64,000 bases of DNA, taken from the NCBI RefSeq assembly GCF_048403405.1, contig NZ_CP183129.1; one strand, given 5' to 3'. Shown piece by piece: positions 2,140 through 52,289 of the stretch. Below the pieces are notes generated by a model. It was not told the DNA's origin. It did no database searches and saw nothing but the letters and a program-made list of their open reading frames with translations. The stretch is from Escherichia coli (GTDB lineage Bacteria; Pseudomonadota; Gammaproteobacteria; Enterobacterales; Enterobacteriaceae). A program made the position numbers and the translations under genes. Every line of letters starts with the position of its first letter. Position 1 is the stretch's first letter.

Positions 2140-2146
2140 AAATGAT

Positions 2147-2180
2147 GCCCGGTTGCTTTTCACAACCGGGCATTTTTTTA
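2147..2180. terminator. rho-independent terminator hairpin between convergent exbD and yghA
   Basis: Stem cccggttg / caaccggg with 7-nt loop followed by run of T (cattttttt); usable in both directions. Confidence 0.7.
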
Positions 2181-3062
2181 ACCTAAATGCTCGCCGCCGC
2201 AGACACCGTGCACTTCTGCGGTGACGTAGCTCGACTCCTGACTTGCCAGGTAAACATATACAGGGGCCAGTTCCGCCGGTTGCCCCGCACGCTTCATCGG
2301 CGTTTTCTGACCAAACTGCGGGATCTTATCCTGCGTCTGTCCGCCGGAAATTTGCAGTGCTGTCCAGATCGGGCCAGGTGCAACAATATTCACACGAATA
2401 CCTTTCTCCGCGACCTGTTTTGCCAGGCCTCGGCTGTAGTTCAGAATCGCCGCCTTCGTAGCCGCATAGTCCAGTAAATGCGGGCTTGGCTGGTATGCCT
2501 GGATTGACGAAGTGGTGATGATACTGGCACCTTTCGGTAGCAGGGGGATCGCTTCCTGGGTTAGCCAGAACAGCGCGAAAACGTTAATGGCAAAGGTCTT
2601 TTGAAACTGTTCGCTGGTGAGGTCTGCAATATCAGGAATGGCAACCTGTTTCCCGGCGACCAGCGCCATAATATCCAGCCCGCCTAACGCCTTATGCGCT
2701 TCGTGAACCAGCGAACGGGCGAATTTCTCATCGCTTAAATCGCCTGGCAGCAGGACGGCTTTGCGTCCGCATTCTTCAATGATCTTTTTCACATCCTGAG
2801 CGTCTTGTTCTTCTACGGGAAGATAACTGATCGCCACGTCAGCCCCTTCACGCGCGTAAGCAATGGCGGCAGCGCGACCGATTCCGGAATCGCCCCCTGT
2901 CACCAGTGCTTTACGATCTTTCAGGCGACCGCTACCTACATAGGTTTTCTCGCCGCAATCCGGCACCGGTGTCATTTTCGCCTGGATGCCTGGCGTCGGT
3001 TGTTTCTGTTTGGGATATTCACCAGTGTAATACTGCGTGGTCGGGTCTTTTAAATGAGACAT
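2178..3062 (-). CDS. yghA: short-chain dehydrogenase/reductase family oxidoreductase YghA
   Basis: ORF track 2178..3065; protein [21 protein letters not shown]... with [15 protein letters not shown](P)-binding motif; start trimmed to second Met. Confidence 0.93.
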
Positions 3063-3183
3063 CATTTTTCTCCCTTCAGGTTCAACGTCCTTTAAGGGTA
3101 GACGCTCTCGATGCGTTGATAAGGGAACCAGGAAGATCCCTAACCCTCAGAATTATGCGACAAAGGTTTAACGGATATGTTGA

Positions 3184-3747
<564 letters not shown>

Positions 3748-4827: not shown

Positions 4828-4983
4828 GACCTCTCCTTTCCACCATTCAATTTCGAAACAATGTTTCTAGTTTAGCGATTCATCAGCGCGTATCCCGTAG
4901 TCTGGCTCACAGAGTGACGAAAAACTGGGCAAAAACACGCGCTTATGCTTTGCTTAAAAAAACACCAACTGAGGAGTGCAACG

Positions 4984-5871
4984 ATGCCGCGTTTAACCGC
5001 CAGAGATTTCCCACAAGAGTTGCTGGATTACTATGACTATTACGCTCACGGGAAAATCTCGAAACGTGAGTTCCTCAACCTTGCGGCGAAGTATGCGGTA
5101 GGCGGGATGACGGCATTAGCGTTGTTTGATTTGCTCAAGCCAAATTATGCGCTGGCGACTCAGGTAGAGTTTACCGACCCGGAAATTGTTGCTGAGTACA
5201 TCACGTATTCTTCACCAAATGGTCACGGCGAGGTGCGGGGTTATCTGGTGAAGCCCGCAAAGATGAGCGGCAAAACGCCAGCCGTAGTGGTGGTGCATGA
5301 GAATCGTGGACTGAATCCGTATATCGAAGATGTGGCACGGCGAGTGGCGAAGGCGGGGTATATCGCCCTGGCACCTGACGGCTTAAGTTCCGTTGGAGGT
5401 TATCCGGGTAATGATGATAAAGGTCGTGAGCTGCAACAGCAGGTTGATCCAACCAAACTGATGAATGATTTCTTTGCCGCAATTGAGTTTATGCAACGCT
5501 ATCCGCAAGCGACAGGCAAAGTGGGTATTACCGGATTTTGCTATGGCGGTGGCGTATCGAACGCGGCAGCGGTCGCGTATCCGGAACTGGCCTGCGCGGT
5601 GCCGTTTTATGGTCGACAGGCACCCACCGCCGATGTGGCGAAGATTGAAGCGCCTTTACTACTCCACTACGCGGAACTGGACACCCGAATCAACGAGGGC
5701 TGGCCTGCTTACGAGGCGGCGTTGAAAGCCAATAATAAGGTCTATGAGGCGTATATCTATCCGGGGGTTAATCACGGATTCCATAATGATTCCACGCCCC
5801 GTTATGACAAATCTGCCGCCGATCTTGCCTGGCAAAGGACGCTGAAATGGTTCGATAAATATCTCTCCTGA
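4984..5871 (+). CDS. yghX: dienelactone hydrolase family protein YghX, apparently intact
   Basis: ORF track 4945..5871; likely start ATG 4984 preceded by gaggag RBS at 4970-4975; uninterrupted reading frame. Confidence 0.85.
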   Translation: MPRLTARDFPQELLDYYDYYAHGKISKREFLNLAAKYAVGGMTALALFDLLKPNYALATQVEFTDPEIVAEYITYSSPNGHGEVRGYLVKPAKMSGKTPAVVVVHENRGLNPYIEDVARRVAKAGYIALAPDGLSSVGGYPGNDDKGRELQQQVDPTKLMNDFFAAIEFMQRYPQATGKVGITGFCYGGGVSNAAAVAYPELACAVPFYGRQAPTADVAKIEAPLLLHYAELDTRINEGWPAYEAALKANNKVYEAYIYPGVNHGFHNDSTPRYDKSAADLAWQRTLKWFDKYLS

Positions 5872-5989
5872 TAGGTTTATCTCTTACGGGATTACGTCTT
5901 AAACAAGCATGAAAAAATAGCGTGCGCAAAAGTCGTTCTTTGCCTAAAATATCGCTATATATGGCAATATATAGCGAATGAGGTGAACG

Positions 5990-6277
5990 ATGAATAACCA
6001 TTTTGGTAAAGGCTTAATGGCGGGATTAAAAGCAACGCATGCCGACAGTGCGGTTAATGTGACAAAATACTGTGCCGATTATAAACGCGGTTTTGTATTA
6101 GGCTACTCACACCGGATGTACGAAAAGACCGGAGATCGCCAGCTTAGCGCCTGGGAAGCGGGTATTCTGACGCGCCGCTATGGACTGGATAAAGAGATGG
6201 TAATGGATTTCTTTCGTGAGAATAATTCCTGTTCTACGTTGCGCTTTTTTATGGCCGGTTATCGCCTCGAAAATTGA
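5990..6277 (+). CDS. yghW: small protein YghW (unknown function)
   Basis: 95-aa [38 protein letters not shown]...; gaggtg RBS 5-10 nt upstream. Confidence 0.88.
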
Positions 6278-52187: not shown

Positions 52188-52289
52188 AGCATTAATCTAT
52201 ATCATGATCGTCAAGAACCATTGATTGATTTGTAAGGAGGTATACCTCCTTACAAATTAAAGTAAATTTAGTTAAGTTAATAAATAATT

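What the first reader, a model, noticed from the sequence alone, without database searches (positions are those of the whole stretch)
5952..5977. Perfect 11-bp inverted repeat abutting the yghW ribosome-binding site
tcgctatatat ggca atatatagcga is a 26-bp palindrome ending 3 nt before the yghW Shine-Dalgarno sequence. It has the geometry of a dimeric repressor operator, or could form an RNA hairpin at the 5' end of the transcript that influences translation.
Basis: seen in the sequence. Interest (0 to 1): 0.35.

Follow-up and report, generated by a model that had tools for sequence, protein, structure and literature searches.

The report
ModE molybdate-repressor operator before yghW
The palindrome is a near-perfect binding site for ModE, the molybdate-sensing dimeric regulator of E. 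coli, sitting on the yghW promoter; ModE control at this locus is already published, so the finding is real but ordinary.

Summary
The 11-4-11 inverted repeat at 5952-5977 is real. It is the core of a 28-bp ModE box at 5951-5978, ATCGCTATATA-TGGCAA-TATATAGCGAa. It matches 19 of the 20 specified positions of the published E. coli ModE consensus ATCGnTATATA-N6-TATATAnCGAT (PMC545781). That is a better match than the boxes I found at modA, moaA, dmsA and napF in MG1655 (2-4 mismatches).

A box with at most 3 mismatches lies upstream of yghW in all 80 Enterobacteriaceae species sampled, whatever the neighbouring genes. In 79 of them it ends 10-21 nt before the start codon. Conservation is at the level of sequence, not base pairing: the consensus "N" positions vary freely and are complementary in only 39 of 81 sequences.

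Salmonella transcriptome work places yghW in a "molybdate" module with modABC. A 2013 paper reports ModE control of morA, a gene overlapping yghW in antisense.

The most likely mechanism is that molybdate-bound ModE dimer occludes or blocks the yghW promoter, so yghW is derepressed when molybdate is scarce. The RNA-hairpin reading is not supported. Still open: the yghW transcription start, the role of morA, and the function of YghW (DUF2623).

The parts
5951..5978 (.). ModE box (operator): ATCGCTATATA-TGGCAA-TATATAGCGAa
   Evidence: 19 of 20 specified positions of the E. coli ModE consensus ATCGnTATATA-N6-TATATAnCGAT (PMC545781; scan). It is the only site in the 64-kb window within 3 mismatches of the core pattern. 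A box with at most 3 mismatches is present upstream of yghW in 80 of 80 species.
5951..5961 (.). Left half-site ATCGCTATATA
   Evidence: Box positions 3-4 and 6-11 are invariant or nearly so (1.9-2.0 bits) across 80 species. Position 5, the consensus N, is variable: C in 62, T in 16, A in 2.
5962..5967 (.).
   Evidence: It is hypervariable even within Escherichia: TGGCAA, TGACAA, TTACGA, TGTTTA, TTTTTG, TTGTAA, TAATTA. Outside Escherichia, positions 12-13 are usually AT, which completes TATAAT on the + strand (70 of 81 sequences).
5968..5978 (.). Right half-site TATATAGCGAa
   Evidence: Box positions 18-23 and 25-26 carry 1.8-2.0 bits. Position 24, the consensus N, is G in 42, A in 34 and T in 4 species. 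The final A (5978) is the single mismatch to the consensus.
5940..5945 (+). Predicted -35 hexamer TTGCCT of the yghW promoter
   Evidence: Shimada et al. 2014 (PMC3946193) list TTGCCT-17-GACAAT for yghW, inside an RpoD-holoenzyme genomic SELEX site between yghX and yghW. The hexamer is invariant in Escherichia. This is a prediction, not a mapped start.
5963..5968 (+). Predicted -10 hexamer (GGCAAT here, GACAAT in K-12), inside the ModE box
   Evidence: One search gives the K-12 sequence, and searches show the strain difference. In this strain the key A at the second hexamer position is replaced by G. The assignment is inferred, and the tool's stricter promoter scan does not report it.
5980..5985 (+). 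Shine-Dalgarno sequence GAGGTG of yghW
   Evidence: Read from the sequence. It stays unpaired in the predicted fold.
5990..6277 (+). yghW coding sequence (95 aa, DUF2623), the gene the box is attached to
   Evidence: ORF. Pfam DUF2623, E = 4.6e-53. RefSeq annotation.
5911..5926 (+). Conserved upstream block GAAAAAATAGCGTGCG of unknown role; it is uncertain whether it belongs to the system
   Evidence: It is invariant across Escherichia, including E. albertii where the flanks diverge. A related AAATAGCGCT block lies about 16-25 nt upstream of the box in other genera. It resembles a ModE right half-site (ATAGCG).

Best explanation
The palindrome is the operator of ModE, the homodimeric molybdate-sensing transcription factor, placed on the yghW promoter. 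When molybdate is plentiful, molybdate-bound ModE binds the two half-sites (ATCGCTATATA and TATATAGCGAa, 6 bp apart). Because the box overlaps the -10 region and start site, or lies at most a few bases downstream of them, binding keeps RNA polymerase from initiating or clearing. When molybdate is scarce, ModE leaves and yghW is expressed together with the modABC molybdate transporter. Shown here: the match to the consensus, its conservation and fixed position across 80 species, and co-variation of yghW with modABC (from the literature). Inferred: repression rather than activation, and occlusion as the mechanism, because the transcription start has not been mapped.
For: (1) The published E. coli ModE consensus is ATCGNTATATA-[N6]-TATATANCGAT (PMC545781). 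Window 5951-5978 has 1 mismatch in 20 specified positions. In MG1655, the modA, moaA, dmsA and napF upstream regions each show one box, with 4, 4, 3 and 2 mismatches. (2) The core pattern CGNTATATA-N6-TATATANCG with up to 3 mismatches occurs once in the 64-kb window, against 0.19 expected by chance for matches with up to 3 mismatches. (3) All 80 species carrying yghW have the box with at most 3 mismatches (48 are perfect). In 79 of them it ends 10-21 nt before the start codon, and 72 of 80 match the core exactly. Information content is about 2 bits at exactly the specified consensus positions and drops at the consensus N positions and in the spacer. (4) The box stays with yghW although the upstream neighbour changes (yghX, gpr, another gene or unrelated DNA), and hybO is downstream in only some genera. 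(5) TATAAT lies on the yghW strand at box positions 8-13 in 70 of 81 sequences, but on the opposite strand in only 15 of 81. The modA box likewise contains TATATT in its left half. (6) The box ends 12 nt before the ATG, so no promoter fits downstream of it. (7) In Salmonella, yghW belongs to a 7-gene 'molybdate iModulon' with modABC (PMC9764980). yghW and modABC also fall together in a second data set (PMC6173445). (8) RpoD holoenzyme binds the yghX-yghW spacer in genomic SELEX, and the predicted -10 lies inside the box (PMC3946193). (9) Kurata et al. [quoted passage not shown] (10) E. coli encodes ModE, whose structure has been solved.
Against: No transcription start for yghW could be retrieved: the supplementary tables were truncated or the papers not held. 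The tool's sigma-70 scan (at least 9 of 12 matches) reports no + strand promoter here or in three other genera. 'Overlaps the core promoter' is therefore an inference from distance and from the conserved TATAAT. The Kurata paper could not be read. From my memory of its abstract, it assigns the ModE-dependent promoter at this locus to the antisense gene morA, not explicitly to yghW. The Salmonella text does not give the sign of yghW's weight in the module.
Confidence: 0.88

Rival explanations
1. The ModE box serves mainly, or additionally, the minus strand. It would control or terminate the published antisense gene morA. On the minus strand the palindrome followed by TATTTT could act as a weak intrinsic terminator, or a minus-strand promoter (TTCATC-17-TATATT, my reading) could start inside the box.
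For: The literature lists yghW/morA as an antisense overlapping pair, with morA under direct ModE control. The scan scores the palindrome as terminator-like on the minus strand only: 11 pairs, 3 G-C, tail TATTTTAGGC. A 26-codon TTG-initiated ORF (6035..5955, minus strand) runs antisense to the yghW 5' end and stops inside the palindrome. An A-tract just upstream of the box, which is a T-tract on the minus strand, is conserved in 69-74 of 80 species.
Against: No antisense ORF is conserved outside Escherichia, whereas the box is universal and at a nearly fixed distance from yghW. TATAAT is conserved on the yghW strand (70 of 81) and not on the minus strand (15 of 81). The stem is A+T-rich with only 3 G-C pairs. 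No terminator-like call was made at the box in three other genera. No minus-strand promoter was found inside yghW. The exact position of morA could not be checked.
Confidence: 0.2
2. The palindrome works as an RNA hairpin in the yghW 5' leader. It would need a promoter upstream of 5952 or read-through from yghX, and would affect mRNA stability or translation.
For: If fully transcribed, the stem folds at -13.7 kcal/mol with a z-score of -4.7. No + strand terminator separates yghX from yghW, so read-through transcripts would contain it.
Against: The stem positions are either invariant, which says nothing about structure, or fail to keep pairing. Box pair 5/24 is Watson-Crick in 39, G-U in 10 and mismatched in 32 of 81 sequences on the + strand. 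The Shine-Dalgarno sequence is not sequestered. The predicted promoter starts transcription inside the right arm. The upstream gene differs between genera. There is no Rfam match. Sequence-level identity to a protein-binding consensus explains the conservation fully.
Confidence: 0.05
3. ModE bound here activates yghW, as it does at moaA, dmsA and napF, rather than repressing it.
For: ModE is annotated as a dual regulator. By established knowledge, several of its targets are activated.
Against: By established knowledge, activating ModE sites lie upstream of the -35 region. Here the box ends 12 nt from the ATG and contains the only plausible -10 elements. yghW groups with the ModE-repressed modABC genes and moves in the same direction as them.
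Confidence: 0.05
4. It is a generic A+T-rich site, such as an H-NS nucleation site, a copy of a repeat element, or a chance palindrome.
For: The half-site resembles the H-NS high-affinity motif TCGATAAATT (from my memory). The region is A+T-rich.
Against: It is single-copy: the median is 1 place per genome across 5421 E. coli genomes. It shows position-specific conservation that mirrors the ModE consensus, including its N positions. The H-NS column in the Shimada table row for this spacer is empty. Chance is excluded.
Confidence: 0.02

Closest known systems
modA operator (ModE box of the modABC promoter, E. coli)
   Same: Same inverted repeat CGnTATATA-N6-TATATAnCG. The box lies within about 20 nt of the start codon: the modA box ends 17 nt before the modA ATG and the yghW box 12 nt before the yghW ATG. 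The left half-site contains a -10-like TATAxT. The downstream gene is co-regulated with molybdate supply.
   Different: The yghW box is closer to the consensus (1 mismatch against 4). The controlled gene encodes a 95-aa DUF2623 protein of unknown function rather than a transporter. The transcription start and ModE footprint for yghW were not available to me.
ModE boxes of activated promoters (moaA, dmsA, napF)
   Same: Same recognition sequence, with 2-4 mismatches to the consensus.
   Different: Those boxes lie further from the start codon. In the MG1655 loci the moaA box ends about 170 nt before the ATG, the dmsA box about 70 nt and the napF box about 200 nt (coordinates). That is compatible with activation from upstream of the promoter. 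The yghW box leaves no room for that.
yghW/morA antisense pair (Kurata et al. 2013, J Bacteriol 195:4496)
   Same: Same locus and same regulator. The paper's title and two citing papers state that morA is under direct ModE control and overlaps yghW.
   Different: I could not read the paper. I therefore could not verify whether its ModE site is this palindrome, or where the morA promoter and ORF lie. My comparative data tie the box to yghW rather than to any conserved antisense ORF.

Membership tests
ModE operator (ModE box) | Match to the E. coli consensus ATCGnTATATA-N6-TATATAnCGAT | tested here: met
   19 of 20 specified positions at 5951-5978 (consensus, scan). The 18-position core is matched exactly, and it is the only site in the window within 3 mismatches.
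ModE operator (ModE box) | Two inverted half-sites separated by 6 bp, suited to a homodimer | tested here: met
   Half-sites at 5951-5961 and 5968-5978 with spacer 5962-5967. The 6-bp spacing is kept in all 80 species.
ModE operator (ModE box) | Same motif present at accepted ModE targets of the same organism | tested here: met
   In MG1655, the modA, moaA, dmsA and napF upstream regions each contain one box, with 4, 4, 3 and 2 mismatches.
ModE operator (ModE box) | The organism encodes ModE | tested here: met
   modE is annotated in E. coli MG1655, and its product is identical over its full length to PDB ModE chains 1O7L and 1B9M. modE lies outside this 64-kb window. Its presence in the other 79 species was not checked.
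ModE operator (ModE box) | Conservation pattern of a protein-contacted site: specified positions fixed, N positions and spacer free | tested here: met
   About 2 bits at box positions 3-4, 6-11, 18-23 and 25-26; 1.1 and 0.8 bits at the N positions 5 and 24; 0.6 bits at spacer positions 16-17.
ModE operator (ModE box) | Physical binding of molybdate-bound ModE | not testable with these tools
   Only indirect evidence: the title of Kurata et al. 2013 and the papers citing it. The paper itself is not held.
ModE operator (ModE box) | Molybdate- or ModE-dependent expression of the adjacent gene | not testable with these tools
   Literature only. Salmonella yghW is in the molybdate iModulon with modABC, and both appear in the same down-regulated list. 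No E. coli expression data were retrieved.
ModE operator, repressing class (like modA) | Box overlaps the -10 region or the transcription start | tested here: inconclusive
   The published predicted -10 (5963-5968) lies inside the box, and a conserved + strand TATAAT lies at box positions 8-13 in 70 of 81 sequences. However, no mapped start site was found, and no hit passed the tool's promoter threshold.
Intrinsic (rho-independent) terminator | G+C-rich stem followed directly by a U run on the transcribed strand | tested here: not met
   On the + strand the tail is ATGAGGTG, with no T run. On the minus strand the loose scan criteria are met, but only 3 of 11 pairs are G-C. No such call was made at the box in three other genera.
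Cis-regulatory 5' leader hairpin or known RNA family | Base pairing maintained by compensatory change, ribosome-binding site involved, or a match to a curated RNA family | tested here: not met
   The variable pair 5/24 is Watson-Crick in only 39 of 81 sequences. The Shine-Dalgarno sequence is unpaired. No Rfam hit at E <= 1.

The most novel reading that the evidence does not exclude
The box has two functions. As DNA it is the ModE operator of yghW. On the minus strand the same palindrome plus its conserved flanking A/T tract ends or gates the antisense morA transcript, so that ModE occupancy and antisense transcription interact. Because the yghW box is the closest match to the ModE consensus among the five E. 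coli ModE-box sites compared here and is universally conserved, YghW (DUF2623) would also be an unrecognised core component of the molybdate-starvation response in Enterobacteriaceae.
Probability: 0.1. Interest if true: 0.4.

Novelty: already known. Interest (0 to 1): 0.15.

Why it matters
It matters little as a discovery. The ModE recognition sequence has been known since the late 1990s, ModE control at the yghW/morA locus was published in 2013, and yghW already appears in a molybdate module in Salmonella transcriptome analyses.

The useful outcome is a clean assignment: the palindrome is a protein operator, not an RNA element. There is also a modest comparative point. The box is a closer match to the consensus than the modA box and travels with yghW through 80 species. 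That marks the uncharacterised DUF2623 protein YghW as a conserved molybdate-responsive gene whose function is still unknown. Its predicted fold is all-helical and has no match among solved structures.

Tried and rejected
1. Transcription start data. I searched the supplements of Kim et al. 2012 and Ettwiller et al. 2016. The tables are truncated in the held copies and do not reach 3.14 Mb. Thomason et al. 2015 is not held.

2. Primary ModE papers. Kurata 2013, Studholme & Pau 2003 and Anderson 2000 are not held. Keyword searches for morA/ModE were swamped by unrelated hits.

3. E. coli iModulon membership. The PRECISE-1K paper has no held supplement and does not mention molybdenum in its text.

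4. RpoS SELEX peak. The peak listed for 'yghW/yghZ' is at 3145934 in what appear to be older (U00096.2) coordinates. After an estimated shift of about 2 kb to the current numbering it falls at the gpr/yghX end of the region, about 1.2 kb from the palindrome. I set it aside as irrelevant.

5. Promoter scans. The stricter sigma-70 scan gave nothing on the + strand here or in Kluyvera, Citrobacter or Salmonella.

6. YghW function. Pfam gives only DUF2623. There is no PDB sequence match. The AlphaFold2 model is confident (pLDDT 87, six helices), but Foldseek against the PDB found nothing with E < 1.

7. Conserved antisense ORF. None was found outside Escherichia.

8. Autoregulation by YghW. I considered this early and dropped it once the ModE match emerged.

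9. Repeat-element origin. Rejected because the sequence is single-copy in E. coli genomes.

Full report
Observation. The window is the E. coli gpr-yghX-yghW-hybO region. TCGCTATATAT at 5952-5962 and ATATATAGCGA at 5967-5977 are perfectly complementary 11-nt arms around GGCA. The 26-mer is unique in the window and was never reproduced in shuffles. Perfect inverted repeats of this size are expected 0.2 times per shuffled window. The window holds seven; several of the other six look like G+C-rich terminator hairpins. The palindrome ends 2 nt before GAGGTG (5980-5985), and the yghW ATG is at 5990.

Comparative evidence. YghW is a DUF2623 protein; the 271 database relatives found come, wherever a source names them, from Enterobacteriaceae. 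I fetched the yghW locus from 80 species, including Escherichia, Citrobacter, Salmonella, Klebsiella, Raoultella, Kluyvera, Kosakonia, Enterobacter, Lelliottia, Phytobacter, Cedecea, Buttiauxella and Shimwellia. Upstream of yghW the flanks are unalignable between genera. A block with the consensus ATCGCTATATAATTTtaTATATAaCGAT, however, is present in every species.

Lead to ModE. A literature search on yghW found a Salmonella transcriptome study. Its 'molybdate iModulon' consists of modA, modB, modC, STM0770, STM0771, STM3142 and yghW (PMC9764980). A second Salmonella study lists modABC and yghW in the same down-regulated set (PMC6173445). This pointed to ModE, the molybdate-sensing regulator.

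Identification. Rodionov et al. give the E. coli ModE consensus as ATCGNTATATA-[N6]-TATATANCGAT (PMC545781). Window 5951-5978 reads ATCGCTATATA-TGGCAA-TATATAGCGAa, one mismatch in 20 specified positions. Scanning MG1655 DNA upstream of four ModE targets long accepted in the literature found exactly one box in each. They have 4 (modA), 4 (moaA), 3 (dmsA) and 2 (napF) mismatches. The yghW box is therefore the best match of the five. In the whole 64-kb window it is the only site within 3 mismatches of the core pattern. E. coli encodes ModE, whose structure has been solved.

Conservation profile. All 80 species have the box with at most 3 mismatches; 48 are perfect and 72 match the 18-position core exactly. 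The box ends 10-21 nt before the start codon in 79 of 80 species. Information content is 1.8-2.0 bits at exactly the positions the consensus specifies. It falls to 1.1 and 0.8 bits at the two consensus N positions and to 0.6 bits in the centre of the spacer.

Variation within Escherichia. The half-sites are invariant while the spacer is hypervariable: TGGCAA here, TGACAA in K-12, TTACGA in O157:H7, and four further versions.

Link to yghW. The box stays with yghW although the upstream neighbour changes. It is yghX in Escherichia, Klebsiella and Raoultella, divergent gpr in Kluyvera, a different gene in Citrobacter, and unrelated DNA in Buttiauxella and Cedecea. hybO is downstream in only some genera.

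DNA site or RNA structure. If fully transcribed, the stem would be stable (-13.7 kcal/mol, z = -4.7), but it would leave the Shine-Dalgarno sequence free. Across 81 sequences the stem positions are almost all invariant, which says nothing about pairing. The one position that varies appreciably (box 5/24) is Watson-Crick in 39, G-U in 10 and mismatched in 32 on the + strand. Selection is therefore on base identity, as expected for a protein-contacted site, not on pairing. No Rfam family matches.

Mechanism: distance argument. The box ends 12 nt from the ATG. No promoter can lie downstream of it, so it either overlaps the core promoter or sits at the very start of the transcript. Both are repressing geometries.

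Mechanism: promoter evidence. Shimada et al. found RpoD holoenzyme binding in the yghX-yghW spacer and predicted the promoter TTGCCT-17-GACAAT (PMC3946193). Here that corresponds to 5940-5945 and 5963-5968 (GGCAAT in this strain), with the -10 inside the box. Outside Escherichia a perfect TATAAT occupies box positions 8-13 on the yghW strand in 70 of 81 sequences. Its mirror image on the other strand occurs in only 15 of 81. This asymmetry is not needed for a symmetric dimer, but it is expected if the left half-site doubles as the yghW -10. The modA box has the same layout, with TATATT in its left half and the box ending 17 nt before the ATG.

Mechanism: conclusion. Together with the modABC co-variation, the best-supported model is that molybdate-bound ModE occludes the yghW promoter and that yghW is derepressed under molybdate limitation.

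Caveats on the mechanism. I could not obtain a mapped transcription start. The tool's stricter sigma-70 scan reports no + strand promoter here or in three other genera, because the -35 elements are weak.

The antisense question. Two papers cite Kurata et al. [quoted passage not shown] The paper is not held. From my memory of its abstract, genomic SELEX and reporter assays found ModE-dependent promoters for morA (antisense to yghW) and morB (antisense to torY), and MorA is a short peptide with an unusual start codon.

Minus-strand features in the window. I see three: a terminator-like score for the palindrome plus TATTTT, a 26-codon TTG ORF (6035..5955) that stops inside the palindrome, and a possible weak promoter, TTCATC-17-TATATT (my reading). 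None of the antisense ORFs is conserved outside Escherichia. The terminator-like call was not repeated in three other genera. A conserved A-tract 5' of the box keeps a minus-strand U run possible. I rate a minus-strand role as a possible Escherichia-specific addition, not the conserved function.

Comparison and novelty. The element works like the modA operator and passes every sequence-level test for a ModE box. Physical binding and molybdate-dependent expression in E. coli could not be tested here and rest on the literature. The site class, the regulator and ModE control at this locus are all published, so the finding is already known.

What remains open. The yghW start site, the relation to morA, a conserved AAATAGCG block upstream (5911-5926), and the function of YghW are all unresolved. 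The confident all-helical model of YghW (pLDDT 87) has no structural relative in the PDB.

Noticed in passing
window 5911-5926: The block GAAAAAATAGCGTGCG is invariant across Escherichia, including E. albertii where the surrounding spacer has diverged. A related AAATAGCGCT block lies about 16-25 nt upstream of the ModE box in other genera. It resembles a lone ModE right half-site (ATAGCG). It could also be a promoter element or another factor's site.
   Followed up: partly
window 5962-5967: The 6-bp spacer of the ModE box is hypervariable within Escherichia (seven versions in nine sequences), while both half-sites are fixed. Because the published predicted -10 (GACAAT in K-12) lies here, strains may differ in basal yghW promoter strength. 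This window's GGCAAT lacks the key A at the second hexamer position.
   Followed up: partly
window 6035..5955, minus strand: A 26-codon TTG-initiated ORF ([26 protein letters not shown]) runs antisense to the yghW 5' end, and its stop codon lies inside the palindrome. It is a candidate for the published short antisense gene morA, but this is unverified. It is conserved only within Escherichia.
   Followed up: partly
window 4945-5871: yghX is an intact 308-codon ORF in this strain, whereas it is annotated as a frameshifted pseudogene in K-12 (BW25113 and MG1655). The window therefore comes from a non-K-12 E. coli; the 141-bp query (5860-6000) spanning this spacer matches strain 118UI at 100%.
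   Followed up: partly
L087 (E. coli NBRC 3301), locus 2561-3723: In this strain the match to the yghX-yghW spacer stops at the equivalent of window position 5920. An IS5 transposase gene follows, and then yghO. The ModE box, yghW and the neighbouring genes up to yghO therefore appear to have been lost to an IS5-associated deletion.
   Followed up: no
L006-L028 (Citrobacter and relatives), about 1100-2960: About 1.9 kb of DNA lies between yghX and yghW, and the ORF just upstream of yghW ends in ...DEWVAF. This resembles the C-terminal pentapeptide of methyl-accepting chemotaxis proteins. It shows that the ModE box belongs to yghW and not to the upstream gene.
   Followed up: no
window 2145-2173, 16029-16059, 40275-40305, 40386-40415, 41732-41757, 52228-52257: Six other perfect inverted repeats of at least 11 bp occur in the window. 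Two (2145 and 40386) are G+C-rich stems followed by T runs and look like terminators. The repeat at 52228-52257 is a 30-bp perfect palindrome, ATTTGTAAGGAGGTATACCTCCTTACAAAT.
   Followed up: no
window 5990-6277 (YghW protein): The AlphaFold2 model is a confident six-helix bundle-like fold (pLDDT 87, pTM 0.81). It has no significant Foldseek match in the PDB and no PDB sequence relative. This conserved ModE-linked protein has no assignable function.
   Followed up: partly
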